DNA from: a virus | DNA: 64,000 nt | Strand: one strand, 5' to 3' | Virus record (IMG/VR): IMGVR_UViG_3300032213_001637 | Coordinates: 45,022-109,021 of that record | Part shown: one piece after another, positions 202 through 64,000 of the stretch | How positions within the stretch are numbered: position 1 is the stretch's first letter | How the letters are laid out: every line of letters begins with the position of its first letter | Translations under genes and position numbers: made by a program | Notes under the pieces: generated by a model | Told to the model about the DNA's origin: nothing | Databases searched by the model: none | What the model saw: only the letters and a program-made list of their open reading frames with translations

Positions 202-202
202 T

Positions 203-2166: not shown

Positions 2167-2168
2167 TC

Positions 2169-4521: not shown

Positions 4522-4524
4522 GTT

Positions 4525-6194: not shown

Positions 6195-6197
6195 TTT

Positions 6198-8481: not shown

Positions 8482-8520
8482 CGGTATACTACAAATCGGT
8501 GTAAATGTTACATAAAACTT

Positions 8521-9339: not shown

Positions 9340-9362
9340 TATTTACTATTAAAATAATAATT

Positions 9363-11673: not shown

Positions 11674-11676
11674 GTT

Positions 11677-13664: not shown

Positions 13665-14014
13665 TAAACCTGATAAACATACTAAATACTACATTTATTG
13701 GAGTTGCATTTTTGGTTGTGTGGTTTCATACAGAAGCGTTTCTTGAATACAGTGGTTTGTTTAAAATGAAACGTCTTTTTAAAATAGATGAATTTGAAAA
13801 AGCACAAGAAAACGATTTCAGTTTAGAATACTTACAGTGGATAAAACAAACCTATCCAAACTTCTTCACTAAACTTGTCAATTGCCCGTGGTGTATTGGG
13901 TTTTGGTTTACCGTATTATCTTCATGGATTTTCTCCACGTTTTACATATTTCCCGTAACTTATGTGTTTACACTTGTTATATATTTACTTATCGTAAATA
14001 AGTTTTTTAAATAA
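13661..14014 (+). CDS. Small membrane protein with CxxC (DUF1360-like)
   Basis: Hydrophobic segments and the motif LVNCPWCIGFW. Confidence 0.55.
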   Translation: MINLINILNTTFIGVAFLVVWFHTEAFLEYSGLFKMKRLFKIDEFEKAQENDFSLEYLQWIKQTYPNFFTKLVNCPWCIGFWFTVLSSWIFSTFYIFPVTYVFTLVIYLLIVNKFFK

Positions 14015-14015
14015 T

Positions 14016-14309
14016 ATGATACTGGTTCAAAACTTCACCGAATTTTACAACATATTAAAAACGCACAATGGAATACCCAATTCAGTTTCTAAACTGAAAG
14101 AGTATGTATTATTGGTAGAACGTTTTAAAAATACGTGCAGTTGTAGAGGTACCGAAAAACAACGTGTAAAAAACGAGTGTGAATCCCAATACCGATTATT
14201 GGTTATAACCGAAGTTAGTAACCATATCAATCTATTCAAAAACTCTTTGGGTGATGGTAACATTAAATTTATTCAAAATAATGTTATCATCCAAGAGTTT
14301 AATGTTTGA
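14016..14309 (+). CDS. Hypothetical protein
   Basis: 97 aa ORF coupled to the upstream gene; contains CSC. Confidence 0.6.
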   Translation: MILVQNFTEFYNILKTHNGIPNSVSKLKEYVLLVERFKNTCSCRGTEKQRVKNECESQYRLLVITEVSNHINLFKNSLGDGNIKFIQNNVIIQEFNV

Positions 14310-15272
14310 TTATAGATAACTTTCAATAGTTGTCTTTAAAGCGTTTGAAAAGTCTGTAAGGTTCATTTGTCCAAACTTCTGTTCATAATCAAAGGTCTCA
14401 ATCGAATAACGCAAGTCATGTCCCTTGCGATCTTCTACATAGTTGATATAATCATAGTCGATCTTAGTGTTAGTAACATCTTCATAAACAGATTTAATAT
14501 GTTCAATCAACTCAAGATTGGTTAATTCATTCTTTCCGCCAATCAAATACTGACTTCCTACATCCCCAGTTTCAAGAACGTCCCAAATACAGTTAACGTG
14601 ATCTTTTACATAAATCCAATCACGTACATTTTGACCAGTTCCATATACAGGAATTGGTTCACGGTTTTTCAACTTACGAATACAAGTTGGAATTAACTTT
14701 TCACCATTTTGTCTTGGTCCAAAATTATTGCTACAATTAGTAATGATAGCAGGTAACTTATATGTCTTAACATAACTACGTACAAGTAAGTCACTTGCAG
14801 CCTTTGTGGCAGAATATGGACTGTTGGGTCGATATGGACTATCTACAGTAAATGAAGACTCCTTTGCATTCAATGATCCATACACTTCATCAGTGGATAT
14901 ATGAATAAACTTCTCTACCTTTCCATAATCATATATCGCTTTAATCAAATTAAATGTTCCCAAAACATTGGTGGTAACAAACGGATCGGGAGAATAAATT
15001 GAATTATCAACATGAGTTTCTGCGGCAAAGTTTACTACATGAGTAATCTCAAACTTATTCAACGTCTGCCACAGAATAACACCATCGTTAATATCCGCAA
15101 CATAATGTTTATATCGTGGATCAACATTAAACTGTAAATTCTTATTGGCAGCATATGTTAACTTATCAAAGTTAATGATATTGTCAATATCAGGATTGTT
15201 CAATAACTTCTCTACAAAATGTGATCCTATAAAACCACATCCACCTGTGACTAAAACGTTTTTCTTATTCAT
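14310..15272 (-). CDS. rmlB: dTDP-glucose 4,6-dehydratase
   Basis: VLVTGGCGFIGS, DKLTYA, NFAAETHVDNS, HISTDEVYG, PYSATKA, DRKGHDLRY. Confidence 0.96.
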   Translation of the reverse strand: MNKKNVLVTGGCGFIGSHFVEKLLNNPDIDNIINFDKLTYAANKNLQFNVDPRYKHYVADINDGVILWQTLNKFEITHVVNFAAETHVDNSIYSPDPFVTTNVLGTFNLIKAIYDYGKVEKFIHISTDEVYGSLNAKESSFTVDSPYRPNSPYSATKAASDLLVRSYVKTYKLPAIITNCSNNFGPRQNGEKLIPTCIRKLKNREPIPVYGTGQNVRDWIYVKDHVNCIWDVLETGDVGSQYLIGGKNELTNLELIEHIKSVYEDVTNTKIDYDYINYVEDRKGHDLRYSIETFDYEQKFGQMNLTDFSNALKTTIESYL

Positions 15273-16528
15273 ATAATTTCAAATGTGGGACACGGAACAA
15301 TAAAATGACCACCAGCCATCAAATACGGTGCTTCTCTCCTCTTGAATTCATCAATAAAATGCCAAGGCAAAATCAAAAGATAATCTGGTCTAGCCTTTCT
15401 CATTTCATTTTCAGAATATATAGGAATGTCAGTGCCAACTGTTCTTAGTCCAAATTTATATGGACTACGTTCAGCCGCACCATCAATCAACCGTTTATCC
15501 AATCCAAAGTACTGTAATAATGTATTTCCCTTAGTAGATGCTCCGTATACCCAAATCTTTTTACCTTTCAACTTCTCTTGTTTGATGAAGTTATACGTTT
15601 TAATCTTCAACTCTTGAAGTTTCTTATAGAAATCCATGTAAAATTCAATAGTGTTTGCACCAATCTTGTTTTCATATTCCAAAATAGAGTTTACACGATA
15701 ACGAGCGACATCACGATATGGCGCAGTAGCGAAAGAAGTAACCTTAGCGACATCTTTCTGTAGATATACTCTAAATGATCCACCGTTAACATCATTCAAC
15801 TCACAATCAACAATTTTAAACTTGGCTCTATCAGCAACATGTTTAAATGAATGTAATGAATAGTACATTAAATGTTCATGACAAATGTTATCAAATGCCA
15901 TTTGTTGAATCATCAACGGAGTATAACTCATTTGAACCACAAACATTCCTTCATCACCCAACACGTCATAAATCTCATTCATGAACGCAACTGGGTCAGG
16001 CAAGTCATAGAACATCGCAATACATGTGATTACGTCACACTTACGTCCTTTAAAAATACTTCGATCAAATGCGTCCTTAGAGAAGTAGTCTTGAATTACC
16101 TGATCAGCAAACTTAACACTCTCTTTGGTATATGAATCATCCGCTGGATCAATTCCTAGACGAGCATATGGTGTGGGAACATAGTTCAACAACGTTCCAT
16201 CGTTACACGCAATATCCAACCATAACGGAGTATCACATGGAATGTGCACATTGATACAACTATCAACCACGTTTTTAAGTTGATTACGCATGGTTTGATT
16301 AGTACCAGAACGATACCAATACTGACCATACATTTTGTTTGGATCGGCGCCCTGTTCTAACTGTACCAACTTTGATGTCGGTGAAAACATCAACTTCATT
16401 TCAGACTTATAATCGTCAGATGGTTGTTTTTTTACAAAGTTTGAAATGAACAAATTACCCAACGTAAACAACGGAGTTAATGTATCATTTGATACCCGAC
16501 AATTTGTAACTTTTTCAGTATATTTCAT
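15269..16528 (-). CDS. NDP-hexose C-methyltransferase (TylCIII/NovU/TcaB9-like)
   Basis: YWYRS, LDIACNDGTLL, FDNICHEHLMYYS, GGSFRV, YGASTKGNTLLQY, PDYLLILPWHF. Confidence 0.9.
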   Translation of the reverse strand: MKYTEKVTNCRVSNDTLTPLFTLGNLFISNFVKKQPSDDYKSEMKLMFSPTSKLVQLEQGADPNKMYGQYWYRSGTNQTMRNQLKNVVDSCINVHIPCDTPLWLDIACNDGTLLNYVPTPYARLGIDPADDSYTKESVKFADQVIQDYFSKDAFDRSIFKGRKCDVITCIAMFYDLPDPVAFMNEIYDVLGDEGMFVVQMSYTPLMIQQMAFDNICHEHLMYYSLHSFKHVADRAKFKIVDCELNDVNGGSFRVYLQKDVAKVTSFATAPYRDVARYRVNSILEYENKIGANTIEFYMDFYKKLQELKIKTYNFIKQEKLKGKKIWVYGASTKGNTLLQYFGLDKRLIDGAAERSPYKFGLRTVGTDIPIYSENEMRKARPDYLLILPWHFIDEFKRREAPYLMAGGHFIVPCPTFEII

Positions 16529-16529
16529 A

Positions 16530-17390
16530 TTATTTCCAGTTCTCTAAACAGTAATCTAATGCTTCATCTACAGTTCTCATTTTAATTCCAGTTGATAACA
16601 ATTTTTGATTGTTCATAACACAGTTGGAACGTGGTGTTTTTGCGGCTGTGGTATAAAACGATTCTTCATTATCAAAAAATTCGAAGACTTTATCTTTAGC
16701 AATAGTCTTTTGCATTTTTTCAATAACTTGTTTTGTAGTTATAAATCCAGTATTAGTAACGTTGTAAATACCATACGGTACATCTCGCGTAATAGTTTCA
16801 ATACAAGCACGTACAAACTCTTGTTTATTAGATATAGAATTTTCAGCATCTAATAGTTTTTTATAATTCAACATTTTGGATAGATAATTACGAGGATTGT
16901 CAATATCTTCAAATGGAATTCTCAATCGCCAAATATAATGTTTAGGAGAATTCTTTATGATGATATTTTCCGCCATAGCCTTTGTTCCACTATAAAAGCT
17001 ACAATTGTTTTGTTCAAAACTGAAATTGGGAGGATCAAATTCGGTAAACGGACTTCCATCACTACGCCGTCCAGTATAAATACACCCACTTGACACATGT
17101 GCAAACGTAATATTATTGTTTCCACAAAACGTTGACAATATAGTAGGTAGTACAACATTACCATAAATGGTGTTATGTTTATCAGTTTCACACGCATCTA
17201 CATTTGGTTTGCCAGTGTATCCAGCACAATTAATGATTGCAGTTAACTTTAACGATTTGTGTAGAAGTTGTAATTGTGTGTATGTAATGTCCCTAGAAGG
17301 AATATGTGTACGAGTTGGAATTCCTTTTTGAAATAGTTGTTTATAAAACTCTTTTCCAACATAACCATTTGAACCTAATAATAAAATCAT
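16530..17390 (-). CDS. dTDP-4-keto-6-deoxyhexose reductase, NRS/ER (3,5-epimerase/4-reductase)-like
   Basis: LLGSNGYVG, NCAGYTGKPNVDACE, SSGCIY, SFYSGTK, LRIPF, RSNCVM. Closer to the NRS/ER type than to classical RmlD. Confidence 0.82.
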   Translation of the reverse strand: MILLLGSNGYVGKEFYKQLFQKGIPTRTHIPSRDITYTQLQLLHKSLKLTAIINCAGYTGKPNVDACETDKHNTIYGNVVLPTILSTFCGNNNITFAHVSSGCIYTGRRSDGSPFTEFDPPNFSFEQNNCSFYSGTKAMAENIIIKNSPKHYIWRLRIPFEDIDNPRNYLSKMLNYKKLLDAENSISNKQEFVRACIETITRDVPYGIYNVTNTGFITTKQVIEKMQKTIAKDKVFEFFDNEESFYTTAAKTPRSNCVMNNQKLLSTGIKMRTVDEALDYCLENWK

Positions 17391-17405
17391 AACCGGGAAT
17401 ATATA

Positions 17406-18245
17406 TCAAAGAATAGATTCCAAATAATTTCTATATTCGGATTTTGGTGTTTTTTCAATTATAATTTTGTATTGATCCACATTGATAAAGCCATTGTTTA
17501 AACAATCTTCTTCAATACAAGCAATTTTGATACCCTGACGTTCCTGAATAGTTTGAACATAACTACTAGCTTGTGCTAATGTAGTTGGTGTTCCAGCGTC
17601 CAACCATACAGATCCACGTTTCATTAACGTGGCATACAACTCATTTCTTTCCAAAAACACTTTGTTTACGTCAGTGATTTCCAATTCACCTCTAGCAGAT
17701 GGTTTTAACTTTTTAGCAATACCAACCACCGCATTATCATAAAAATATAAACCCGGAACCGCATATTTACTCTTAGGAACCTCTGGTTTTTCTTCTATTG
17801 ACTTTACTCGTCCATCATAAGAAAACTCAACCACACCATAATCCCGTGGGTTTGTTACTGAATATGCAAAGATTTGTGCCGGTGAAAACAACGTATCAAC
17901 CAAGGTTCCAAAAATAATGTTATCACCCAATATCAAAGATACACAATCCTTCTTAATAAAATCTTCAGCGATCAAAAATGATTGAGCAATACCTTTTGGT
18001 TGTGGTTGTACACCATATACAATCTTTAATCCCAAATGTTTTCCATTTCCAAATAACGCCTTGTACTCAGGAATCCATTTGGGCGTAGATATAATCATGA
18101 TTTCTCGGATTCCTTTGTTAATCAATGTTGACAAAGGATAATAAATCATGGGTTTATCAAATACAGGCAACAACTGTTTGTTACATGTACATGTAAGTGG
18201 ATATAACCTACTACCAGTTCCACCAGATAAAATAATGCCTTTCAT
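17406..18245 (-). CDS. rmlA: Glucose-1-phosphate thymidylyltransferase
   Basis: KGIILSGGTGSRLYPLT..NKQLLPVFDKPMIYYPL, LILGDN, EEKP, SARGELEITD, WLDAGT. Confidence 0.97.
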   Translation of the reverse strand: MKGIILSGGTGSRLYPLTCTCNKQLLPVFDKPMIYYPLSTLINKGIREIMIISTPKWIPEYKALFGNGKHLGLKIVYGVQPQPKGIAQSFLIAEDFIKKDCVSLILGDNIIFGTLVDTLFSPAQIFAYSVTNPRDYGVVEFSYDGRVKSIEEKPEVPKSKYAVPGLYFYDNAVVGIAKKLKPSARGELEITDVNKVFLERNELYATLMKRGSVWLDAGTPTTLAQASSYVQTIQERQGIKIACIEEDCLNNGFINVDQYKIIIEKTPKSEYRNYLESIL

Positions 18246-54371: not shown

Positions 54372-54400
54372 AAAAAACCCCGCTTTTTAGGGCGGGGTTT
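54372..54400 (-). terminator. Rho-independent terminator after the tail sheath gene
   Basis: Stem AAACCCCGC/GCGGGGTTT with a T-run on the minus strand. Confidence 0.8.
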
Positions 54401-54419: not shown

Positions 54420-57400
54420 TTAAGCACCGAAGGATGCACCCGTAGGCAAGATGTTGAAATCAAGAATGATAAATTCAGCAGTCTTGGTTGGTTGTAGAAA
54501 AATCTGTCCATATAAGATATTTCTATCAATCAAGTCAGGGGTGTTGTTGGTCTCGTCCATCTTAACTTGGAAAGCGTACAAACCACTACGTGATTGTACT
54601 TGTTCAAGATAAGGATTGACGATACTCAAGAAACGATTACGTGTATTTGCCACGTTCTGTTCGAATACCAAGAAACGTGAACTTGAAGCAATGAACTTCT
54701 TCAAGTTGATCATCAAACGACGAACGTTAATACGATCCAATGCGCTTGGTGCGATTTGAAGAGTCTTTTGACCCCATACACAGATTCCCTGACCGGGGAA
54801 TGCTGCAATTGGGTTAACACGACCTTCATATAGTGTATCACGTTCACCGTGTGTCAAACGATCCAACACTTGAACGGCTTGGGTAATACCACCACGGTTC
54901 AAACCGGCTGGAGCAAACCATTCAGCAGAAGACTTATCGTTTGCGGCGTAAATGGCAGGCAGAACAACAGATGGAGGTACACTAATAATCTTGTTCATGT
55001 TGGTATCAAGAATCTTGACCCATGGATAGTACGTAGCAGCGTAACTGCTATCGATTGTATTGGCAACGTTAATTGCCGCGTCAATCAATCCAGTGCTTTG
55101 ATTGCTCTTAGGAAACACCACGTTATCCATGATGTAGAAACAATCACCACGTGCTTCACACATATCAATTGTCAACTGTGCCACATAACTGTGGTGTTGA
55201 TAAAAGATACCCGGAGTGACGATCAAGTTAATATCGAACTCGTCAGCATTACCCAACGCACCGATACACTGTCTGTAAGCAACACTGCCTGGACTTGTAA
55301 TGTTAGTACAATTCAAACCTTGAGTATTGCCTGGAATGATATCAGATCCAACGTTAATTGGAATTGCTGGTGATTGACCATCAAATCCGCCTTGGAAGCC
55401 AAATACGAACTTACGCATCTTCACACGGGTTGATTCGTATGCAGCGTCATAAGTTGATGGAACACCACCACTATCGTTTTGAACGTCTGGTTGTTTAGAA
55501 CCAGTTAGATTGTGTGTATCACCGGTTTCAAGATCGAATACAACGTTATTGCCAATTGAAGTGAAACCTTCATAAGCAGGTAACGGAGCGAAGTATTGAA
55601 GATTGTCGTTATGTACGCTATATACACCCACAGATGATGTAGGATACAATGACAACAAATCGTCTGCTGCACCCACTGGGGGTTCACCAAACACGATACC
55701 AGATGGATATTTACCCGGAGCCGTTGAGTAAGTTGAAGCGCGGGTGAATTGTACTGGTGGCAAGAATCCGCCAACGTTACCACCGATTGGTGTAGCAAGA
55801 GCGTCAAATCCATAAGGAATTACGGCTTCTGGATACACATTTTCAGTCATTTCAATACGAACATACTTACTCAAGTTAGCATAAGTACCGAATTCAATGA
55901 TCTTACCGGAGAAAGCAATGTAGTTGTAACGATCACCAATACGGCGAGCGATAAAGTTACTGCTATCTGGATCAAGATTCAAGTTTTGGAAACGTTCCAA
56001 GTACTTAGGATTCTTATCAGTATCACTAAATCTACGTACACTCAATGTGAATGAACCATAGTCACTTCCAGCAACAGTACCAGCAAGTTTTACGTCACTG
56101 ATTTCAACCTTGTAGGATGTGTTCGTATTGGTTCCGTCAGCGAGTGTGTGTAGACGAAATAGTGGGAAACGTTGTGGGCGAGCTGTTATATCAGATGTAC
56201 CAGTAAATGGTGCAACTTGTTGTGAGTTAACCCATGGTGTTGTTGCCCACTTCAAACTAAAGTCACTGTAACCAGTTGTTGGTGTGTAACCAAAGTCATC
56301 GGTAAGCTTCAATGGATTACCATTGAATTGAACTTTATTCTCAGCACCAACTGGAGTATATGGAGCTTCACTTCCTACAATCTTCCAACCGTCAGACGGA
56401 TCAGTTGATTCTTCTGCGATACGAGCAATCGTATCCTTGAAGATATTGTAGAGATATGCAGCTTCAATCTTTTGACCAGCAACTTGTTTTGCCGGATCAC
56501 CAGCGGTTGGATCAGATCCAAACACATTGGTGATATAGTTTGAACTTGCTGGATCCAATGATAATTCATAGATTCCATAACTTCCACTTGAACCACCGAT
56601 GTTATAACGCAAATCAAGAACATAGTCTTGTGCGGTTGGATCTTCACTACCACTATACAAACCAGAGGTTGCAATCTTCTTGCTCAACACCGAACCCTCG
56701 AAACCATATACAACTTGTGACAACTTGTTGTTAGCATCAGATTGAATGGTTGCATTTTGGGTATTAGCAAGAACTGCAAGTACAACTGCTTCACGAGCAG
56801 CGCCTGGATTACAAGGATCTCCACCAGAAACAACAGTTTCAGTGAATGTGGTGAACTTACCAAAACTACCAGTAATGTTACAGGTCAATTGAATTTGAAC
56901 ACCGCAACTATTCGTTGGACGATACTTGGCAAAATTGATACTGTTAATGATAACAGAAGATGCATCACCAGATACTGGGAAGTCATCACTCAACTTAACC
57001 AAACTGCTTGTGGTTGCTAAACTACCCGATAATTTACCACTTTGTTCAGCAAGAGCACGCAACAACTTGGCTTCAGCGCTGATTGTCAAGTCACCTTGAT
57101 AACTGGAGCTAATTTCAAATGAAGCGGCATTAAACGTAAGATTCACATCACCGATATAACGAGTGGTGTATGTCTTGTTACCAGATGTGCCTGGTGGGTT
57201 ATATGTTGAGAATGAACTGGTTTCGAAGTTTGCGTACAAACTACCGGTAACAGTCAATATCTCAGTACCAGCACTTGAACTAACGTATTGTACGTTAACT
57301 GTAATATCATCTGGATCAAGTGCGATATATGATGAATCCGCAGTTCCCAACGCGGTAAATGAACCACTTTGTGTTGCGCGGTTATAATATCCCGGAATAG

Positions 57401-57728
57401 CGTAGATAACAAACGGACTATCTTGTTTATATCCGGTTAAAGCACCTACACGACAAATGGTAACTAGACCTTGTTCTTGTAGATACTGTTTGGCTGTGTA
57501 TGGGCCGTAATATACGCCGTCCGATACACCGAATTTTTCTTCTAACTCAGCTACGCTGGTGACAATCGTTGGAGCAAACCCCGGTCCCTTTGGAAAGGGA
57601 GCGACAATGGCCCCACCGATATCAGAAACGCCCTGAGCAAGTCCTGATAGATCGTTTTCACGACTGAAAACGCCTGGACTCACAATTTTATCATGTGGGG
57701 TAAATGTTCCCCCTTCTGTAATTGGCAT
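54420..57728 (-). CDS. Tail sheath protein (T4 gp18-like)
   Basis: SPGVFSRENDLS, KGP, YYPWV, WFAPAGLNRG, NPIAAFPG.GI.VWGQKTL, LDRINVRRL, FEQN, PTKTAEFI. Confidence 0.96.
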   Translation of the reverse strand: MPITEGGTFTPHDKIVSPGVFSRENDLSGLAQGVSDIGGAIVAPFPKGPGFAPTIVTSVAELEEKFGVSDGVYYGPYTAKQYLQEQGLVTICRVGALTGYKQDSPFVIYAIPGYYNRATQSGSFTALGTADSSYIALDPDDITVNVQYVSSSAGTEILTVTGSLYANFETSSFSTYNPPGTSGNKTYTTRYIGDVNLTFNAASFEISSSYQGDLTISAEAKLLRALAEQSGKLSGSLATTSSLVKLSDDFPVSGDASSVIINSINFAKYRPTNSCGVQIQLTCNITGSFGKFTTFTETVVSGGDPCNPGAAREAVVLAVLANTQNATIQSDANNKLSQVVYGFEGSVLSKKIATSGLYSGSEDPTAQDYVLDLRYNIGGSSGSYGIYELSLDPASSNYITNVFGSDPTAGDPAKQVAGQKIEAAYLYNIFKDTIARIAEESTDPSDGWKIVGSEAPYTPVGAENKVQFNGNPLKLTDDFGYTPTTGYSDFSLKWATTPWVNSQQVAPFTGTSDITARPQRFPLFRLHTLADGTNTNTSYKVEISDVKLAGTVAGSDYGSFTLSVRRFSDTDKNPKYLERFQNLNLDPDSSNFIARRIGDRYNYIAFSGKIIEFGTYANLSKYVRIEMTENVYPEAVIPYGFDALATPIGGNVGGFLPPVQFTRASTYSTAPGKYPSGIVFGEPPVGAADDLLSLYPTSSVGVYSVHNDNLQYFAPLPAYEGFTSIGNNVVFDLETGDTHNLTGSKQPDVQNDSGGVPSTYDAAYESTRVKMRKFVFGFQGGFDGQSPAIPINVGSDIIPGNTQGLNCTNITSPGSVAYRQCIGALGNADEFDINLIVTPGIFYQHHSYVAQLTIDMCEARGDCFYIMDNVVFPKSNQSTGLIDAAINVANTIDSSYAATYYPWVKILDTNMNKIISVPPSVVLPAIYAANDKSSAEWFAPAGLNRGGITQAVQVLDRLTHGERDTLYEGRVNPIAAFPGQGICVWGQKTLQIAPSALDRINVRRLMINLKKFIASSSRFLVFEQNVANTRNRFLSIVNPYLEQVQSRSGLYAFQVKMDETNNTPDLIDRNILYGQIFLQPTKTAEFIILDFNILPTGASFGA

Positions 57729-57788
57729 ATGCTAAATTTCCTTTCGATTGGTTAAGTTTTGTATGAGACGCATACAAAAAACTCTAAA

Positions 57789-57796
57789 TATAAATA
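57789..57796 (-). promoter_or_regulatory. Putative late promoter motif TATTTATA (representative copy)
   Basis: The same motif lies upstream of minus-strand genes at 22076, 28477, 50583, 52101, 54058 and 54342; variant TATTTATT at 39797 and 52688. Confidence 0.6.
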
Positions 57797-57823
57797 TTTC
57801 TAAAAATATGAAAGACTACATAT

Positions 57824-58639
57824 TTATATTTTAAGACTATTTTTTAGTGTGTAATTTATTGCATTAATCACATCTGCATCACTTATGGTATATGTACACT
57901 CATGTTGTCTATATGTTCCTTTGTAATGTGGACACCATATATCTTCCCATTTTATTTCTAAGTTATTATCGTTATAACAGCCAAAACAAATACTATCATC
58001 TGATGGACCCAACCGAACAATATTACTATTAAACTCAAAATAACGCTTGGTATGACCACTTATCATGATCACAGGTACACCCAAACACCATGCCAACCAC
58101 GCTAATCCGGAACTAACACCTATATAAACAGAAGAACTATATATCAAATCACACACTTGCAACAGATCCAAACCAGTACAATCAGTGACATTTGATAATA
58201 AAGTTGGTTCATTCGATATTGCAATTGGATCGTATCCTATAGTTTTAACATATTGCGTCGTCTTAAACCATCCAATAGGATTATTCCACGATTTACAATA
58301 GTTACTTCCATATTCAGAAAAAGTAATCGTTTTACCCGGCGTCTTTTTAAGTTTGGATAGATTAAACCTCGGACGTTGTTCAACATAATCAACCCCCAAT
58401 GCGTGCGCAGATGACCATTGTAGAGGTTTTTCACGATCAAACACATCAATTACTATCTTCTTGTCATAAGAAGACGGTATTTCAAATTTCAGGTTAGGAT
58501 AAGAGTCCGCAAATAAATTTTTATAATAAAAGTTTGTATAGACATCCCAACCGTATTTCTCTCTTGCAATATCAATATAAGGCAACCACGCAATGCCGTC
58601 ACCCAATTGGTTGCTTTCAAGATGTACGTATACTTTCAT
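57824..58639 (-). CDS. TibC/AAH-like (autotransporter heptosyltransferase-type) glycosyltransferase
   Basis: SNQLGDGIAW, KSWNNP.GW, IGVSSGLAWLAW, iron-finger C..GC..WCP..EC. Confidence 0.8.
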   Translation of the reverse strand: MKVYVHLESNQLGDGIAWLPYIDIAREKYGWDVYTNFYYKNLFADSYPNLKFEIPSSYDKKIVIDVFDREKPLQWSSAHALGVDYVEQRPRFNLSKLKKTPGKTITFSEYGSNYCKSWNNPIGWFKTTQYVKTIGYDPIAISNEPTLLSNVTDCTGLDLLQVCDLIYSSSVYIGVSSGLAWLAWCLGVPVIMISGHTKRYFEFNSNIVRLGPSDDSICFGCYNDNNLEIKWEDIWCPHYKGTYRQHECTYTISDADVINAINYTLKNSLKI

Positions 58640-60713
58640 CTATAATAAGTTTGTTGATCGTATCAATAACCATTTGAGAACTAATTTCTTTGGAACACTC
58701 AAATTGACGTGGCGTACCTTTTTGACGAGGACACCAGTTCCAATCACCACGATCAAAATCATGTTCATTCCAACAACCGTTACACACATTGGTATTGATA
58801 ACACGATACGGCGTGAAAAATTCGCTACGAGGTAAACTAAAACCACTCACCAATATCGTATGCTTTTTAATTGCCCAAGATAACCATGACAAACCAGACC
58901 CAATGCCAATGAAAAACTCACAATTATACAATAAATTTATAGTTTCCTGTATATCCTTGTCTCCAGACAAATTTATAATATTGTTAAACCGATCTTCCTT
59001 TTCAGCTTGAATCAATACCGGCTTCAAACCAATACTGTTCAAATAATCACACGTTTCCTGCCAACCAGTAGGATTGTTCCAATACTTGGCTTGAGCCGTT
59101 GATTGTGTTGCAAAACAAACATACTTTTGTTCAATTTTCCTATCGGTATTCTTAATTACAATATTAGGTTTAATCTCTTTGTGATTTATACCCAATATAG
59201 ACGATGATAAACGTTGTAAAGATACATCCTTGTAATTAAACAATGAACGATGGGTATCCGGATAACACCCAACTATATAAATAGCATAAAAATTGCCACT
59301 CCACTGTAATCCACAAAACTTAAGGTCCGGATAGTTATCTTGAAATAATGATGACCAATTCGTAGCACATGTAACATTACATCCGTGTTTTTTTCTAAAC
59401 TCTTCCACATACGGAAACCACGCAATACAATCTCCCAACGATTTAGTATCCAAACAAATTAAAACCTCTTTGTTCTTCAAATTAAGTTTTTGATCCAATA
59501 TTAACTTCGAATCCACGTTAACCTTGATACGATATGGCACATAACGTTTGATCAAACATTTTGACCACTCGTTCGTTTTCATCGTGCCACTATACAAACT
59601 ATCATCGGTGTCATCATCAATAAAATCAAAACTATAACGAGTATCAACATTACCACCGGTAATGGACAAATGTGCACCATCAGTATAGTTAATCTCGATC
59701 TTAGCACCTTGCATTTGTTTATCGACACGTTTGGTCGAATCATAAATTTCATTTAACTCATTTGTCATACGATATTCATCAATCTTTCGATATTCTCTAA
59801 CCAAATCATCTACAACATGATTCCAATCGTTGGTTGTTGCATATTTAAACCCCTCTTTACACAATATACGATAATCGTTCATCGCCTTACAAACACCATC
59901 ATATACAGATTCGACATTTCTTTCGATCTTCACCATTCCCGGCAAACTATCACTATCATATGTTGATACCACAGGTAAACCACATGACAACGCTTCTATC
60001 AATGTCAAATTCGGATGACCTGCTTCAACAGAAGATGGATGTAGAAAAATAGTGTGATCTTGATACACCTTTAATAAGGCATCTTCATTTAAATCGTACA
60101 AGAAAGTCAACTTGTCATACGGTTTAAAATCTTTGTTCTTTTCAAAAAATTCTTTGTTTGCAATTGGTCCCGCAACTGTAATTTCCAAATTAAGTTTTCT
60201 TGCAGCTTCAATCGCATACACAAAACCCTTACGATCAAATGACATATCTTCAGCCAAACCATTTCGACCAATACACAATAGTTTATGTTGTTTATTAGAC
60301 GGATCTCCCGGTTTAAAAAATGATGTATTTGTACCGTGACGCAAATACTTCACACGACGACTGTCAAAATATGAAACCAAATGTTTAGCAGGAACAAATG
60401 ATAAAACAGACTTTTCAATTGCTTCCCGGTTTTGATTATATAAATTTGAACTGTTACCATACACCTCAGTATGATGATCGTGCATTGTAAACACATACGG
60501 AATACCACGTTCGTGGGCTATAATTCCAAGATTGGCAACATGAATATGAACAATGTCATAATCTTCTTTGCGAACATCATCAAGATACTTGATATCACAT
60601 GTATGTCCCAATCGTTCCAACGACTGTTTATATTCCCAAATAATCTTTTCAACTGCACCCCACCCATTCGGAGGAATAGAAATTAATCCCGGTGTAACAT
60701 GACAAATTTTCAT
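58617..60713 (-). CDS. Two-domain GT4 + TibC/AAH-like heptosyltransferase
   Basis: GT4 part: IPPNGWGAVE and EAGHPNLTLIEA. C-terminal part: KSLGDCIAW, STAQAKYWNN, IGIGSGLSWLSW, CNGCWN..WCP..FECSK. Confidence 0.85.
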   Translation of the reverse strand: MKICHVTPGLISIPPNGWGAVEKIIWEYKQSLERLGHTCDIKYLDDVRKEDYDIVHIHVANLGIIAHERGIPYVFTMHDHHTEVYGNSSNLYNQNREAIEKSVLSFVPAKHLVSYFDSRRVKYLRHGTNTSFFKPGDPSNKQHKLLCIGRNGLAEDMSFDRKGFVYAIEAARKLNLEITVAGPIANKEFFEKNKDFKPYDKLTFLYDLNEDALLKVYQDHTIFLHPSSVEAGHPNLTLIEALSCGLPVVSTYDSDSLPGMVKIERNVESVYDGVCKAMNDYRILCKEGFKYATTNDWNHVVDDLVREYRKIDEYRMTNELNEIYDSTKRVDKQMQGAKIEINYTDGAHLSITGGNVDTRYSFDFIDDDTDDSLYSGTMKTNEWSKCLIKRYVPYRIKVNVDSKLILDQKLNLKNKEVLICLDTKSLGDCIAWFPYVEEFRKKHGCNVTCATNWSSLFQDNYPDLKFCGLQWSGNFYAIYIVGCYPDTHRSLFNYKDVSLQRLSSSILGINHKEIKPNIVIKNTDRKIEQKYVCFATQSTAQAKYWNNPTGWQETCDYLNSIGLKPVLIQAEKEDRFNNIINLSGDKDIQETINLLYNCEFFIGIGSGLSWLSWAIKKHTILVSGFSLPRSEFFTPYRVINTNVCNGCWNEHDFDRGDWNWCPRQKGTPRQFECSKEISSQMVIDTINKLIIDESIRTS

Positions 60714-63106
60714 AACGATTTAAAATTATAGTGCGGCGAACCCACTTTGATATAACTATTAAATTCATCAATAGAATCTATTGTTTTAAAACGACAAATC
60801 GCATTGCTGTTAATTACATATGCAACACTCGGTTTGTCATTTTTTGGATTCAACGATGTAAATAAAATGTTATTTGCAAACATATGTGAATGTGTCTTAC
60901 GAACATATTGTACAAATTGATCCGGGGGTGTACACAATGAAACGTCCTTGATAACCACATTGATTTCGTTATCATAGTTTTCCAGTTGACGAACTACATC
61001 AAGTTCAGATTGATGTGAATAACTTCTGTATGTAACACCCCAAACAGATAATTCCGTAATATAATCCAAGTTAACATCGTTACAATTAACATGATGAAGA
61101 TTAATAGCGTTGGATGGTATCAACGATTTACCATGAAATAAAAATCGTCCATTTTTATCAATATCATGAATATTTGATACTGTTATTTTCTTTAAATTAA
61201 TACACTCAGAGTCAGAATTGTATTCTTCTAATGTTACATCATAAACGCATCCCGGTTTTACATTAACAACTTGATAAAAGTTTCTGTTTGATAACTGAAC
61301 ATAACCAATTTTCAAAATACACACCCGGTTTTCATACACACGAATAATAACATTCTTGTTATCAACCAAGTTGGAAGAACTTTTCCAAACATAAAACTTG
61401 GTAAATTCATCGTTGGGAACCACAGTAAAATACTCAACACAAGAAAACGCATTCAAAGAACTGTGTGGAAACAATTCACTTTCGTTCTTTTTAGTAATAA
61501 TCAAGTCATTTAAATTGTTCTTTAACACATGATACGTGTAATTCTCCAAACTATTTGATGGAGAGTCGTGTTTAACAATACTTGCATTATAATCCAATTC
61601 AGTATATACACTTTCAAATTTTTCAATAAAATAATCATTGTCAATAACAAAAAATACAGTCTTTAACGTGTCACCTTCGCCCAATACTTCATGAATAAAA
61701 AACCCTTTGGATGATGATATACGTAACTTGTTAACAATATCATCAACCACCAACAAATCCTTATCGTTTAAAACAATATCATAGTTCAAACATACACTAT
61801 AACGATATCCAAGTTCTTTTGACTTACGTATACCATTCTGATAGTTGGTCCAAACAGCCAATCCATGATAATTATCATTGTCATTAGCCTTTAAATTAAT
61901 GTCACACTTGTATCGACCAGTATTCCACCACGCTTTACAATAATAGGTATGCTTGATAATAGGATTACGTTCATCATAAACAACCGTATCCGCAATATTC
62001 CTAAACTTTTCATATGAAGAATGATGTGTAGTCAAAATACGATGAGCGTTAGTCAGTGATCGTAAACATTGAACCGTAGTAACAAAAGACACAGACGTGG
62101 TAGGATACGTCGATACAATATAAGAATAATCAGGTACTATCTTTTTTTTTAAAATATACGATCTGATAATATCAACATTCTTATCCAAATCATTCGATAA
62201 ATATTTGATATTTGAATACCGATCATACATGTTGAGATACACCGGTAAGTTATATATCAACGACGGTAACTTGTAACTAATAGCTTCACGTATAACAATA
62301 GGACTTGTCTCTTTATCATTGTCATTTCCACGACTTGTAAACAAAAACAAGTCCATACTACTATAAAACGTGTCAACATCACTACGTTCACCCCACACTT
62401 TACAGTTAGATGGTAAATTTTTAAGAATTGGTGACCAATATGACTCAAAATTACCAGCTGTATTACCAATAAAGTGAAACTGAACAGGCAAATCAATCAT
62501 CTTTTTTGCATACTCAACAATTTCACCCTGATTTTTTCGCGGTGACCATAAACCCACATTCACCACATGCAATAAATTAGGATCCAACCCCAAACTAACC
62601 AACGATTTATCCCTATTACCAACTCTATCCTTATGAACAATAGGATATTCTACAACATGTGAATCAATTTTTAACGGATTCATTTGTTGTTTCTGAAAAT
62701 TACTCACAAAAACAAACCGATCCGGAAAAAAACGCTTTGACGCAGTATTAAAACTACTATCATGTGAGGTTTCTACAATATTATAAGATCGGGTATTAAC
62801 ATAAACCTTCGACGCAATATCGTCAGACATATAATACTCTGGCATTTCTTCCAAATGTATTATGTCAGGTTGTACTTTATCAATAATCGATAACAATTGT
62901 TCTTTGTTATCACCCAAAACAAAATATCGGTCTTTCAATAACTCCCGCACTTGGTTCTTCTGAACAACAAACCACTCACCATAATCATTGTACTCTACAC
63001 AATATAAATCATGTATATCATTCAATAACCGCAGTTTCTTTAAAAGATACTGCGGACACCCACCAGTAGATAAATGAGGAGTAATGTAAAGAATTTTATA
63101 ACTCAT
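60710..63106 (-). CDS. Multidomain glycosyltransferase (N-terminal GT4)
   Basis: PHLSTGGCPQY, NVGLWSPRKNQ, DLFLFTS..E.SPIVIREA; a second domain contains LNYD. ATG at 63106. Confidence 0.8.
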   Translation of the reverse strand: MSYKILYITPHLSTGGCPQYLLKKLRLLNDIHDLYCVEYNDYGEWFVVQKNQVRELLKDRYFVLGDNKEQLLSIIDKVQPDIIHLEEMPEYYMSDDIASKVYVNTRSYNIVETSHDSSFNTASKRFFPDRFVFVSNFQKQQMNPLKIDSHVVEYPIVHKDRVGNRDKSLVSLGLDPNLLHVVNVGLWSPRKNQGEIVEYAKKMIDLPVQFHFIGNTAGNFESYWSPILKNLPSNCKVWGERSDVDTFYSSMDLFLFTSRGNDNDKETSPIVIREAISYKLPSLIYNLPVYLNMYDRYSNIKYLSNDLDKNVDIIRSYILKKKIVPDYSYIVSTYPTTSVSFVTTVQCLRSLTNAHRILTTHHSSYEKFRNIADTVVYDERNPIIKHTYYCKAWWNTGRYKCDINLKANDNDNYHGLAVWTNYQNGIRKSKELGYRYSVCLNYDIVLNDKDLLVVDDIVNKLRISSSKGFFIHEVLGEGDTLKTVFFVIDNDYFIEKFESVYTELDYNASIVKHDSPSNSLENYTYHVLKNNLNDLIITKKNESELFPHSSLNAFSCVEYFTVVPNDEFTKFYVWKSSSNLVDNKNVIIRVYENRVCILKIGYVQLSNRNFYQVVNVKPGCVYDVTLEEYNSDSECINLKKITVSNIHDIDKNGRFLFHGKSLIPSNAINLHHVNCNDVNLDYITELSVWGVTYRSYSHQSELDVVRQLENYDNEINVVIKDVSLCTPPDQFVQYVRKTHSHMFANNILFTSLNPKNDKPSVAYVINSNAICRFKTIDSIDEFNSYIKVGSPHYNFKSL

Positions 63107-63139
63107 TATATACAATTATCAATATAACCAATTGAACAA

Positions 63140-64000
63140 TTATTTTATTTTTTCCATCAATTCTTTAACCTGTTTCTCCAAAATAGTCACTCTCTCATTC
63201 AATTCCTTGAACGCATTGATCGTTACCCATTGAAGTTTCTCAGAATTAACCCAGTAATACCTTTGTGGTCCACTGTCATTTGGATGTGCTTTTTGTTCAA
63301 ATGTAGTCACAATTTCAGGAAAATCATTCATTACATCTTGAGCCACTATACCATATGACACAACTTCATCTGACATCTTGTTATTGCCAAGAACGTTGTA
63401 TTCAAATGATACAGGATTCAATTTCAACAAATCATCCAACCCCTTAGTCAACGGACGTATGTTCTTCTTCAAACGACGATCCGATGTACCACCACCCGCC
63501 GCACCTTGCGCACCTTGTGAACCAGTTGAACCAGTTAAACCTTTGACACCACTCGTTCCAGCTGCGCCTTGAGCACCTTGAGAACCTGTCCCCGGTACAC
63601 CTTGAAAACCTTGAGCGCCTTGTGCACCTTGAGAACCTGTCCCCGGTACCCCTTGAAAACCTTGTGCACCTTGTGCACCTTGTGCGCCTTGAGCACCTTG
63701 TGCGCCTTGAGCACCTTGTACACCTGATGAACCAGATGCACCTTGTGCGCCCTGTGCGCCCTGTGCACCACCACCACCTTGTGAACCTTGCGCACCTTGG
63801 ACACCTGATGAACCTCCAGCACCTTGTGCGCCCTGAGCACCTTGTGCGCCTTGAAAACCTTGAGCGCCTTGTGCGCCCTGAGCACCTTGTGCGCCTGATG
63901 TGCCAGATGAACCCGCCGCACCTTGTGCGCCCTGAGCACCTTGTGCGCCTTGAAAACCTTGAGCGCCTTGTGCGCCCTGAGCACCTTGTGCGCCTGATGT
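63140..64000 (-). CDS. Collagen-like tail fibre with C-terminal peptidase S74 chaperone (5' truncated)
   Basis: The frame is open from the window end: (GAQ)n/GFQ/GSSGTS triplets, then SDRRLKKNI..L.PVSF.Y..GIVAQDV..PE.V and a terminal coiled coil. Confidence 0.92.
   Translation of the reverse strand, partial: TSGAQGAQGAQGAQGFQGAQGAQGAQGAAGSSGTSGAQGAQGAQGAQGFQGAQGAQGAQGAGGSSGVQGAQGSQGGGGAQGAQGAQGASGSSGVQGAQGAQGAQGAQGAQGAQGFQGVPGTGSQGAQGAQGFQGVPGTGSQGAQGAAGTSGVKGLTGSTGSQGAQGAAGGGTSDRRLKKNIRPLTKGLDDLLKLNPVSFEYNVLGNNKMSDEVVSYGIVAQDVMNDFPEIVTTFEQKAHPNDSGPQRYYWVNSEKLQWVTINAFKELNERVTILEKQVKELMEKIK
63497..64000 (-). repeat. 9 bp-unit collagen (Gly-X-Y) coding repeat array
   Basis: GGy GCn CAr units, with higher-order duplications such as the GFQGVPGTGSQ block at about 63573-63664. 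Confidence 0.9.

What the first reader, a model, noticed from the sequence alone, without database searches (positions are those of the whole stretch)
57824..64000. Collagen tail fibre followed by TibC/AAH-type protein O-heptosyltransferases: candidate virion glycosylation module
Seen: a collagen/S74 fibre gene containing Ser/Thr triplets (GSSGTSG) is followed by three overlapping GT genes. Two carry the LGD catalytic-Asp motif, SGLxWLxW and a four-Cys CxxC..CP..EC motif. Established: bacterial autotransporter heptosyltransferases (AAH/TibC) are iron-finger enzymes that transfer ADP-heptose to serines of adhesins. Inference: the phage primes its own fibre serines with heptose, and the fused or adjacent GT4 domains extend the glycan. 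That would be a phage-encoded protein O-glycosylation pathway affecting host binding, stability or shielding.
Basis: partly seen in the sequence, partly recalled or inferred. Interest (0 to 1): 0.88.

Follow-up and report, generated by a model that had tools for sequence, protein, structure and literature searches.

The report
Phage TibC-like fibre glycosylation cassette
A large lake-water phage carries three sugar-transferase genes, two of them true relatives of the E. coli adhesin-glycosylating enzyme TibC, between its collagen-like fibre gene and its tail-sheath gene; comparison with many phages and bacteria suggests they sugar-coat the fibre, but no sugar has been observed.

Summary
On the minus strand lie a collagen-like fibre gene with an S74 chaperone (cut by the contig end), an 801-aa GT4 + GT-A protein, a 698-aa GT4 + TibC-like fusion, a 271-aa TibC-like core, then the tail sheath.

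TibC homology is solid:
- PDB 4rap E 3e-70, and TIGR04414 at 332 bits against a cut-off of 200.
- The catalytic Asp, Thr/Lys, Trp and all four iron-finger Cys are kept.
- The 271-aa model matches TibC (TM 0.88), not LPS heptosyltransferases.

Linkage to fibres is conserved and specific. Gly-X-Y ORFs beside TibC-like genes are nearly pure, proline-free Gly-Ser/Thr-Ser/Thr (median occupancy 0.78, against 0.235 in a blind sample; Fisher p 2e-13). The pairing also occurs in bacteria.

Weak points:
- This window's visible fibre piece is mostly GAQ with GAAGSSGTSG islands (occupancy 0.17).
- The adenine-contacting Arg-286 and the dodecamer "thumb" are not conserved.
- No heptose pathway is on the contig, so heptose is unproven.
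- No glycan has been seen on any fibre.

This scan has already noted the same theme on many other genomes, including a close relative. I found no published description.

The parts
63485..64000 (-). Collagen-like (Gly-X-Y) region of the fibre gene, 5'-truncated by the contig end. Mostly GAQ triplets, with four G[AG][AGS]G[ST]SG islands (proposed acceptor sites); 23 Ser/Thr and 2 Pro in 172 residues.
   Evidence: Pfam Collagen 9e-22; triplet census; the only Gly-X-Y ORF on the 109-kb contig.
63140..63484 (-). C-terminal S74 intramolecular-chaperone domain of the fibre (Pfam envelope about 63308-63484) and its coiled tail, including the stop codon. It begins at ...GGGTSDRRLKKNI.
   Evidence: Pfam Peptidase_S74 2.9e-14; PHROG tail-fibre families.
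60710..63115 (-). 801-aa multi-domain glycosyltransferase: GT4 (about res 1-325), GT-A fold (res 331-556), beta-sandwich and a further alpha/beta domain (res 557-801). The likely ATG is at 63106. Proposed role: glycan extension.
   Evidence: Pfam Glycos_transf_1 / Glyco_trans_1_4. C-terminal model pLDDT 89, pTM 0.84. GT-A matches Z 12.8, rmsd 3.1 A over about 160 residues. Conserved next to the fibre gene in L004-L014.
59724..60713 (-). GT4 (GT-B) domain of the 698-aa fusion protein (res 1-330). Proposed role: adds the second sugar.
   Evidence: Pfam Glycos_transf_1 2.8e-10, Glyco_transf_4 2e-06. The start overlaps the stop of the 801-aa gene (ATGA).
58617..59705 (-). Full-length TibC/Aah-type domain of the 698-aa protein (res 337-698): beta-barrel plus catalytic GT-B plus iron finger. 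D428 = TibC D110, T539/K543 = T226/K230, W610 = W305, C644/C647/C661/C673 = C339/342/358/370. T591 replaces R286, and the thumb tip F265/V266 is deleted. Proposed role: initiating protein O-glycosyltransferase.
   Evidence: PDB 4rap E 3e-70 over TibC 24-386; TIGR04414 331.7 bits against a cut-off of 200; residue roles from PMC4358343; conservation in 80 phage homologues.
57824..58639 (-). 271-aa TibC-type catalytic core without the N-terminal beta-barrel and without the thumb. D14, S112, K116, W181 and four Cys (C218/C221/C236/C248) are kept. V replaces R286, and Ser sits at the TibC P300 / Aah S294 position.
   Evidence: PDB 4rap E 3.7e-26. TIGR04414 148.6 bits, below the cut-off. Model pLDDT 90. 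Foldseek top hit TibC TM 0.88, rmsd 2.6 A, against WaaC/WaaF 0.57-0.66. Orthologues in L004, L007, L011 and L012; absent in L008-L010.
54420..57728 (-). Tail sheath gene (1102 aa) immediately downstream. This is context showing that the cassette sits in the virion structural module.
   Evidence: Pfam Phage_sheath_1 and Phage_sheath_1C; PHROG 23 at 6.5e-70. Sheath genes lie within 3 kb of TibC-like genes: 7 of the 141 neighbour ORFs from 39 clusters.
54375..54400 (-). Strong terminator-like hairpin after the sheath gene. No comparable site was predicted in the fibre-to-sheath intergenic gaps.
191..18245 (.). Context only: an 18-kb glycan-gene cluster that could supply donors and further transferases. 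It holds GT4, GT2, GT11, GT6, WcbI, HtrL/YibB, FkbM, Glf and a dTDP-sugar cassette with a C-methyltransferase. Its link to the fibre cassette is inferred, not shown.
   Evidence: Pfam scans; first-stage note e1-6015472.

Best explanation
This is a phage-encoded, cytoplasmic protein O-glycosylation cassette whose acceptor is the phage's own collagen-like fibre.

Proposed mechanism:
1. The fibre is made late in infection. Its C-terminal S74 chaperone trimerises it and is probably cleaved off (inferred from the family).
2. The TibC-type domain of the 698-aa protein, and probably the 271-aa paralogue, use the conserved Asp (D428 / D14) as base to activate a Ser/Thr hydroxyl in the Gly-X-Y tract. 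Here that means the recurring GAAG(S/T)SG islands. They transfer the first sugar from an NDP-sugar, held by the conserved Thr/Lys and Trp.
3. The fused GT4 domain and the GT4 and GT-A domains of the 801-aa protein then extend the glycan, possibly with donors from the 18-kb sugar cluster on the same contig.

Shown: homology, conserved catalytic and iron-finger residues, conserved synteny, and a specific association with Ser/Thr-rich Gly-X-Y proteins.
Inferred: the acceptor, the order of steps, the sugar (heptose is possible but unproven), and the benefit (triple-helix stability, hydration, protease or receptor shielding, or host binding).
For: Homology:
- 698-aa res 339-689 aligns with TibC 24-386, E 3e-70, and exceeds the TIGR04414 equivalog cut-off.
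- The 271-aa model matches TibC at TM 0.88, well above the LPS heptosyltransferases.
- D110, K230, W305 and the four Cys are invariant in 80 phage homologues. Their roles are taken from PMC4358343.

Synteny:
- The order fibre, GT(801), GT4-TibC, [short TibC], sheath is kept in L004-L014, down to 46% TibC identity.

Specific association:
- 25 of 39 dereplicated TibC clusters have a Gly-X-Y ORF within 10 kb.
- Their S/T occupancy has a median of 0.78 (21 of 25 at 0.6 or more). In a blind sample of viral collagen-like ORFs the median is 0.235 (9 of 104 at 0.6 or more). Fisher p 1.8e-13.
- Reverse test: 3 of the 9 S/T-rich blind ORFs lie on records with a TibC-like gene (about 2, 4 and 13 kb away). 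None of 42 S/T-poor records does; p 0.004.
- In bacteria, 14 of 44 TibC-like loci have an S/T-rich Gly-X-Y ORF, mostly directly adjacent.

This contig:
- The fibre is its only Gly-X-Y or S/T-rich ORF.
- No autotransporter beta-domain is present.
- The overlapping start and stop codons of the three GT genes suggest coupled translation.
- Neighbours of TibC-like genes are mainly further GTs, methyltransferases and sheath genes.
- Weak hint of expression: lake metatranscriptome contigs 96-97% identical lie on parts of the 698 and 801 genes. Depth is non-uniform, unlike in the DNA runs.
Against: - No glycan has been observed on any such fibre.
- The visible part of this window's fibre is S/T-poor (occupancy 0.17), like its nearest relative L005 (0.23), whereas most TibC-linked fibres are S/T-saturated. 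The rest of the gene is missing.
- 14 of 39 TibC clusters show no Gly-X-Y ORF within 10 kb, and 6 of the 9 S/T-rich blind ORFs lie on records without TibC. Most of these records are fragments.
- Arg-286 (adenine contact) is not conserved and the thumb tip is deleted. Donor and oligomeric state may therefore differ from TibC's.
- TibC's known acceptors are beta-helical autotransporter repeats, not triple helices.
- Co-location in the structural module could partly reflect shared late expression rather than an enzyme-substrate relation.
Confidence: 0.6

Rival explanations
1. The cassette glycosylates a different protein: another virion component (sheath, capsid, other fibres encoded on the missing 65% of the genome) or a host surface protein such as an adhesin. 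The neighbouring fibre gene would then be a bystander in the same late module.
For: - The contig is only about 35% of the genome.
- The visible fibre part is S/T-poor.
- 14 of 39 TibC clusters lack a nearby Gly-X-Y ORF.
- In Microcystis phage Mel-JY01 the neighbour is a non-collagen, ISSS-repeat structural protein.
- TibC's natural acceptors are beta-helical repeats (PMC4358343).
Against: - The association is specific to S/T-rich Gly-X-Y proteins in both directions, and there is direct adjacency in bacteria.
- No other ORF of 150 aa or more on the contig has an S/T-rich tract.
- No autotransporter domain is present.
Confidence: 0.17
2. The GT genes act on host envelope glycans (LPS core, O-antigen or capsule), for example to change the infected cell's surface. 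The GT9-like domains would then be lipid-linked heptosyltransferases.
For: - Pfam assigns the domains to Glyco_transf_9.
- The contig carries an O-antigen-like 18-kb sugar cluster.
- GT4 and GT-A domains are generic.
Against: - Sequence and fold are TibC-type with an iron finger, and clearly separated from WaaC/WaaF (E 3e-70 against none by sequence; TM 0.88 against 0.57-0.66).
- LPS heptosyltransferase I scores 22 bits against a cut-off of 185.
- The genes sit between the fibre and sheath genes.
Confidence: 0.07
3. The 271-aa gene is a decaying or non-catalytic duplicate (a structural or regulatory subunit), and only the 698-aa fusion is an active initiating enzyme.
For: - It lacks the beta-barrel and the thumb.
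- It scores below the TIGR04414 cut-off.
- It is absent from the sister sub-lineage L008-L010.
Against: - All catalytic and iron-finger residues are kept, and they are invariant or nearly so in the alignment.
- The model is confident, pLDDT 90.
- Orthologues persist at 53-91% identity.
- A second short copy also accompanies a full-length one in the distant locus L015.
Confidence: 0.2
4. The transferases hypermodify phage DNA bases with sugars.
For: Phage GT-B and GT-A enzymes that glycosylate hydroxymethylated bases are known (bioRxiv 10.1101/2023.12.21.572611).
Against: - The TibC family consists of protein O-glycosyltransferases.
- The only thymidylate-synthase-family gene on the contig scores as an ordinary ThyA above the equivalog cut-offs.
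- The cassette lies in the structural module, not the nucleotide-metabolism region.
Confidence: 0.02

Closest known systems
TibC-TibA and Aah-AIDA-I of E. coli (bacterial autotransporter heptosyltransferases, BAHT; TIGR04414; PDB 4RAP/4RB4; PMC4358343)
   Same: - Same family by sequence and fold.
- Catalytic Asp, beta-phosphate Thr/Lys, sugar-contacting Trp and the four-Cys iron finger are all conserved.
- A cytoplasmic enzyme is encoded beside a long, repetitive, Ser-bearing fibrous protein that it would hyper-O-glycosylate.
   Different: - The acceptor would be a proline-poor collagen-like Gly-X-Y fibre of a virion, not a beta-helical autotransporter passenger.
- Arg-286 (adenine contact) is replaced.
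- The thumb tip needed for the dodecamer ring is deleted.
- One copy lacks the beta-barrel.
- The enzyme is fused to a GT4 domain and flanked by further GTs, so an oligosaccharide rather than a single heptose is likely.
- The donor is unknown.
Mimivirus L230 and viral collagen-like proteins (reviewed in PMC9614988)
   Same: A virus encodes both collagen-like proteins and the enzyme that glycosylates them.
   Different: - L230 hydroxylates Lys and glucosylates hydroxylysine, using a GT25-like GT-A domain plus a lysyl hydroxylase.
- Here the proposed linkage is directly to Ser/Thr, by a GT-B iron-finger enzyme.
- This is a bacteriophage, not a giant virus of amoebae.
BclA, the collagen-like exosporium glycoprotein of Bacillus anthracis (own knowledge; Daubenspeck 2004 is listed as a reference in PMC9614988)
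   Same: Gly-X-Thr collagen-like repeats carry O-linked oligosaccharides on Thr and form surface filaments.
   Different: - Unrelated transferases and a different organismal context (spore, not virion).
- BclA repeats are Pro-rich (GPT).
Mycobacteriophage virion glycosylation (Freeman et al. 2023, as summarised in PMC12619734)
   Same: Phage-encoded glycosyltransferases decorate the phage's own virion proteins.
   Different: - Those acceptors are the C-termini of capsid and tail-tube subunits.
- No TibC-type enzyme and no collagen-like acceptor is reported in the summary read here (PMC12619734); the original paper was not read.
LPS heptosyltransferases WaaC/WaaF (GT9)
   Same: GT-B fold of the same CAZy/Pfam family (PF01075).
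   Different: - They have no iron finger and no beta-barrel.
- The match is much weaker (TM 0.57-0.66 against 0.88 for TibC; TIGR02193 17-22 bits against a cut-off of 185).
- Their acceptor is a lipid.

Membership tests
BAHT / TibC-Aah (TIGR04414) | Score above the curated equivalog cut-off (200 bits) | tested here: met
   698-aa protein: 331.7 bits over profile positions 10-374 of 374. PDB 4rap E 3e-70.
BAHT / TibC-Aah (TIGR04414) | Score above the curated cut-off, for the 271-aa paralogue | tested here: not met
   148.6 bits, below 200, covering profile positions 84-372 only. It is still clearly homologous: 4rap E 3.7e-26 and TM 0.88.
BAHT / TibC-Aah | Catalytic base Asp-110 (LGD) | tested here: met
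   D428 in 698 and D14 in 271. Invariant in 80 phage homologues.
BAHT / TibC-Aah | Beta-phosphate contacts Thr-226 / Lys-230 and sugar O4 contact Trp-305 | tested here: met
   T539/K543/W610 in 698 and S112/K116/W181 in 271. K and W are invariant; T or S in all 80.
BAHT / TibC-Aah | Arg-286 hydrogen-bonding adenine N1 (the basis of ADP-sugar specificity in PMC4358343) | tested here: not met
   Thr-591 in 698 and Val in 271. Arg in only 10 of 80 phage homologues.
BAHT / TibC-Aah | Four-Cys iron finger (Cys-339/342/358/370) | tested here: met
   All four Cys align in both proteins and are invariant in 80 homologues. Iron binding itself cannot be tested here.
BAHT / TibC-Aah | N-terminal beta-barrel (TibC res 1-97) | tested here: inconclusive
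   Present by alignment in 698 (TibC 24-97 aligned). Absent from the 271-aa protein, which starts at about TibC residue 97-101.
BAHT / TibC-Aah | Beta-hairpin thumb with Phe-265/Val-266 mediating the dodecamer ring | tested here: not met
   The region is 8-9 residues shorter in both proteins, and F265/V266 fall in a deletion. The 271-aa model has no hairpin at res 141-158.
BAHT / TibC-Aah | Dodecameric assembly | not testable with these tools
   Needs SEC-MALS or cryo-EM.
BAHT / TibC-Aah | Acceptor is an autotransporter passenger domain | tested here: not met
   No autotransporter beta-domain on the 109-kb contig (the contig is a fragment). The neighbouring repetitive protein is a collagen-like fibre.
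BAHT / TibC-Aah | Transfers heptose from ADP-heptose | not testable with these tools
   No GmhA on the contig. GmhA-like genes occur in only 2 of 24 TibC-bearing records, one of them beside NeuB. No heptose-pathway family is among the 25 commonest neighbour families.
Collagen-like phage fibre with S74 intramolecular chaperone | Gly-X-Y repeats and a C-terminal Peptidase_S74 domain | tested here: met
   Collagen 9.3e-22 and Peptidase_S74 2.9e-14; PHROG tail-fibre families.
GT4 glycosyltransferases (Glycos_transf_1) | Pfam match above the gathering score | tested here: met
   698 N-terminus 40.4 bits and 801 N-terminus 30.1/31.8 bits.
GT-A fold glycosyltransferases (801-aa res 331-556) | GT-A Rossmann-like fold; DxD motif | tested here: inconclusive
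   The fold is met: Z 12.8, rmsd about 3.1 A over about 160 residues, tied among several GT-A families. The invariant motif is N-Y-D rather than a canonical DxD. No Pfam family matched.

The most novel reading that the evidence does not exclude
TibC-type iron-finger glycosyltransferases paired with proline-free Gly-Ser/Thr-Ser/Thr 'glyco-collagen' proteins form a widespread, undescribed two-component system in large aquatic phages and in bacteria. In it, dense O-glycans on Ser/Thr take the place of hydroxyproline in stabilising very long triple-helical fibres; one open Gly-X-Y frame here exceeds 5000 residues. This phage would be a variant in which glycosylation is confined to periodic GAAG(S/T)SG islands and served by two specialised TibC paralogues.
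Probability: 0.3. Interest if true: 0.88.

Novelty: new variant of a known kind. Interest (0 to 1): 0.74.

Why it matters
If true, this would extend virion protein glycosylation in phages beyond the mycobacteriophage case, to a different enzyme family and a different acceptor.

It would give the BAHT family, so far known only for virulence autotransporters, a second and apparently much larger natural substrate class.

It would also explain how proline-free Gly-Ser/Thr-Ser/Thr collagen-like fibres of abundant freshwater giant phages can be stable. Such glycans could govern host adsorption, particle stickiness and resistance to proteases in lakes.

The enzyme-acceptor pair is simple enough (an enzyme plus a short repeat peptide) to be tested directly, and to be reused for protein glyco-engineering.

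Tried and rejected
- Megablast of the region against 50,697 phage records: no match. Only four records match the TibC domain by tblastn, and one of them is cultured (Microcystis phage Mel-JY01).
- Complex prediction of the 698-aa TibC domain with the 271-aa paralogue: no verdict, score 0.00, controls not run. It is not used as evidence either way.
- Heptose supply: GmhA (TIGR00441) was searched in the contig and in 23 related records. It is absent here. Sub-threshold hits occur in two records, one beside NeuB and an SDR. This cannot support or exclude heptose.
- DNA hypermodification: the thymidylate-synthase-family gene is an ordinary ThyA.
- Autotransporter beta-domain: none on the contig.
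- Foldseek ranked human collagen galactosyltransferase COLGALT1 and LH3 first for the 801-aa C-terminal region (E 1.6e-6). TM is only 0.29 and rmsd 18 A, and VIA-align shows a tie among many GT-A families. I do not claim kinship with collagen glycosyltransferases.
- The ESM Atlas gave only leads.
- RNA contigs left the 271-aa gene (57840-58429) uncovered. This is no evidence of silence.
- A single fibre-to-sheath operon: no terminator is predicted before 54400. However, TATAAATA and TATTTATA motifs in and before the 95-nt gap, and RNA contigs ending at 57763-57767, suggest the sheath has its own promoter. Co-transcription with the sheath is therefore not claimed.
- Paper searches for TibC or heptosyltransferase together with phage and collagen-like found no precedent. 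No paper on Mel-JY01 is held.

Full report
**What is there.** The window is the last 64 kb of a 109-kb IMG/VR viral contig judged about 35% complete, so it is a fragment of a roughly 300-kb phage. The contig ends at window position 64000, inside a repeat. On the minus strand the order is as follows.
- A 5'-open fibre gene (63140-64000).
- An 801-aa gene (60710-63115; likely ATG at 63106).
- A 698-aa gene (58617-60713).
- A 271-aa gene (57824-58639).
- A 1102-aa tail sheath gene (54420-57728), followed by a strong terminator-like hairpin (54375-54400).

The fibre matches Pfam Collagen (9e-22), Peptidase_S74 (3e-14) and tail-fibre PHROGs. The 801/698 genes overlap by ATGA and the 698/271 genes by 23 nt.
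- The visible collagen part is mostly GAQ. Ser/Thr fill only 0.17 of the X and Y positions, in four G[AG][AGS]G[ST]SG islands.
- The 801-aa protein has no TibC domain.

**Are the enzymes TibC-type?** Yes.
- Residues 339-689 of the 698-aa protein align with TibC residues 24-386 (PDB 4rap) at E 3e-70. They score 331.7 bits on NCBIfam TIGR04414, the Aah/TibC equivalog model, whose cut-off is 200.
- The 271-aa protein aligns with TibC 101-385 (E 3.7e-26). It scores 148.6 bits, below the cut-off, because it lacks the N-terminal beta-barrel.
- Its AlphaFold model (pLDDT 90) has TibC as its top structural match (TM 0.88, rmsd 2.6 A). The LPS heptosyltransferases WaaC and WaaF score well below that (TM 0.57-0.66).

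I mapped the residue roles given in Yao et al. 2014 (PMC4358343) onto the alignments:
- Conserved in both proteins: the catalytic base Asp-110, the beta-phosphate contacts Thr-226 and Lys-230, the heptose-O4 contact Trp-305, and the four iron-finger cysteines. Asp-110, Lys-230, Trp-305 and the four Cys are invariant in 80 phage homologues; Thr-226 is Thr or Ser in all.
- Not conserved: Arg-286, which hydrogen-bonds adenine N1 and explains ADP-sugar specificity in TibC. It is Thr in 698 and Val in 271, and Arg in only 10 of 80 phage homologues.

These are true family members by descent and catalytic machinery. Their donor nucleotide and their quaternary structure cannot be assumed to be those of TibC.

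**The third gene.** A model of residues 331-801 of the 801-aa protein, built on 25 homologues, is confident (pLDDT 89, pTM 0.84).
- Its first roughly 225 residues are a GT-A glycosyltransferase fold (Z 12.8, rmsd about 3.1 A over about 160 residues, tied among several GT-A families).
- A beta-sandwich and another alpha/beta domain follow.
- Foldseek's top hits, human COLGALT1 and LH3, have low TM (0.29), and I do not read kinship into them.

The cassette thus carries five transferase-type domains: two GT4, one GT-A and two TibC-type.

**Is the link to fibres conserved?** A scan of IMG/VR found 356 viral stretches encoding a relative of the TibC-like domain, of which 80 loci were kept.
- The order fibre, GT(801-like), GT4-TibC, [short TibC], sheath is kept across L004-L014, down to 46% TibC identity and 47% sheath identity.
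- After clustering the TibC domains at 70% identity, 25 of 39 clusters have a Gly-X-Y ORF within the 10-kb flanks. At 55% identity it is 13 of 19. Many of these ORFs lie within a few hundred bases to 3 kb.

**Composition of the linked ORFs.** This is the most telling result. The linked ORFs are almost pure, proline-free Gly-Ser/Thr-Ser/Thr. In the sister sub-lineage L008, 502 of 594 triplets are GTS, and on that contig the frame stays open for 5275 residues.

As a control I drew a blind sample of viral collagen-like genes with a (GGNNNNNNN)x12 pattern. This gave 118 loci and 104 usable ORFs.

| Set | n | Median S/T occupancy | ORFs at 0.6 or more |
|---|---|---|---|
| Blind viral sample | 104 | 0.235 | 9 |
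| TibC-linked clusters | 25 | 0.78 | 21 |

Fisher p is 1.8e-13 and Mann-Whitney p is 2e-10.

The reverse test also holds. Of the nine S/T-rich blind ORFs, three lie on records that also encode a TibC-like gene, about 2, 4 and 13 kb away. None of the 42 fully searched records with S/T-poor collagen ORFs does (p 0.004).

In bacterial genomes, 14 of 44 TibC-like loci have an S/T-rich Gly-X-Y ORF (occupancy 0.67-0.97). Most are directly adjacent, in Polaromonas, Methylococcales, Bacteroidota and others. An enzyme and a compositionally peculiar repeat protein that travel together across phages and bacteria are most simply an enzyme and its acceptor.

**What this means for this window.**
- On the 109-kb contig the fibre is the only ORF with Gly-X-Y runs, and no other ORF of 150 aa or more has an S/T-rich tract.
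- There is no autotransporter domain.
- The visible fibre segment is one of the S/T-poor exceptions (0.17; nearest relative L005, 0.23), with Ser/Thr concentrated in recurring GAAG(S/T)SG islands. The rest of the gene was lost at the contig end.
- Within the lineage, the sub-lineage with (GTS)n fibres (L008-L010) lacks both the S74 domain and the short TibC gene. The sub-lineage with GAQ-type, S74-ended fibres (window, L004-L007, L011, L012) has the short TibC gene. That is only two sub-lineages, so it is an observation and not a correlation.

**Sugar and donors.** The contig has no GmhA. GmhA-like genes occur in only 2 of 24 TibC-bearing records, one of them beside NeuB. In a tally of 141 neighbours within 3 kb of TibC-like genes in 39 clusters, the common families are these:
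- GT1/GT4: 11
- Tail sheath: 7
- GT2: 5
- FkbM: 4
- Methyltransf_24: 4
- No heptose-pathway family is among the 25 commonest.

The same contig does carry an 18-kb cluster with GT4, GT2, GT11, GT6, WcbI, HtrL/YibB, FkbM, Glf and a dTDP-sugar cassette with a C-methyltransferase. This could supply donors and further steps, but the link is inferred. Heptose remains possible, since Trp-305 is kept, but it is unproven.

**Expression and habitat.**
- Near-identical DNA is present in freshwater and lake metagenomes from at least three studies.
- In two lake metatranscriptome runs from one study, contigs 96-97% identical cover the sheath gene at depth about 36. Shorter contigs lie on parts of the 698 and 801 genes at depth 2-4. 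Two DNA runs are roughly even at about 5. This is a weak hint that the cassette is transcribed in nature.
- The RNA contigs end at 57763-57767, and TATAAATA / TATTTATA motifs lie in and before the 95-nt gap upstream of the sheath gene. The sheath therefore probably has its own promoter.

**Rivals.**
- Another protein acceptor cannot be excluded on a 35% fragment (0.17).
- Action on host envelope glycans is unlikely given the TibC-type rather than LPS-type signature (0.07).
- DNA glycosylation has no support: the ThyA is ordinary.
- The short paralogue could be non-catalytic (0.2), but it keeps every catalytic and metal-binding residue.
- A complex prediction for the two paralogues gave no verdict.

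**Comparison with what is known.**
- The closest known system is TibC-TibA / Aah-AIDA-I. It shares the family and the logic (an enzyme beside a repetitive fibrous acceptor). The proposed acceptor class, the missing thumb and Arg-286, the GT fusions and the virion context are all different.
- Functional analogues are Mimivirus L230 with viral collagen-like proteins (PMC9614988), the BclA glycoprotein of Bacillus spores, and mycobacteriophage virion glycosylation (as summarised in PMC12619734).
- Full-text searches found no paper linking TibC-type enzymes to phages or to collagen-like proteins.
- This scan's own notes describe the same theme on many other genomes, including a close relative of this phage. 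My tests reproduce their main claims independently, but those notes are not evidence.

**Verdict.** I rate it a new variant of a known kind, with confidence 0.6 that the cassette O-glycosylates the adjacent fibre. The sugar's identity is open.

Noticed in passing
window 191-18245: An 18-kb glycan-gene cluster. On the plus strand it holds GT4, GT2, GT11, GT6, WcbI, HtrL/YibB, FkbM methyltransferase, GT4 and UDP-galactopyranose mutase. On the minus strand it holds an RmlA-like, RmlD-like, sugar C-methyltransferase and RmlB-like cassette. It has no heptose genes.
   Followed up: partly
L008:1-6489 (same contig as G002:C1:7-15825): In a sister phage (TibC 73% identical) the fibre gene at the same locus is (GTS)n. 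502 of 594 triplets in the locus are GTS, and the frame is open for 5275 residues from the contig start. It has a different, non-S74 C-terminal domain, and there is no short TibC gene.
   Followed up: partly
L003:3065-8430 (Microcystis phage Mel-JY01, PP395634): This is the only cultured phage found with a TibC-like domain. The domain is the C-terminus of a 1226-aa GT4-containing protein annotated 'methyltransferase FkbM'. Directly upstream lies a 509-aa 'structural protein' that is 26% Ser/Thr, with repeated ISSS motifs but no Gly-X-Y.
   Followed up: partly
L209, L216, L217, L222, L231, L242, L246, L248 (bacterial loci): In Polaromonas, other Burkholderiales, Methylococcales and further bacterial MAGs and genomes, small (100-340 aa) Gly-Thr/Ser-Ser proteins lie directly next to TibC-like genes.
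   Followed up: partly
window 57729-57830: A T4-late-like TATAAATA spans the stop codon of the 271-aa gene, and a TATTTATA lies in the 95-nt gap before the sheath gene. RNA contigs from two lake metatranscriptome runs end at 57763-57767.
   Followed up: partly
neighbours of TibC-like genes in related loci (alignment A4): 2OG-Fe(II) oxygenase genes (2 clusters), DegT aminotransferases (2), hexapeptide acyltransferases (3) and Laminin_G_3 proteins (3) occur within 3 kb of TibC-like genes. The oxygenases might be hydroxylases of the fibre.
   Followed up: no
L085:639-2121 (G017): A GmhA-like SIS protein (179 bits on TIGR00441, below the cut-off) sits beside a NeuB-family synthase and an SDR in a 219-kb TibC-bearing phage contig. 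This may be a nonulosonic-acid or heptose pathway.
   Followed up: no
L251:172-1332 (contig 5171-6331, upstream of the window): The thymidylate synthase is 386 aa and matches the ThyA models in three stretches (res 1-157 and 278-386 named). This suggests an insertion of about 120 residues in the middle.
   Followed up: no
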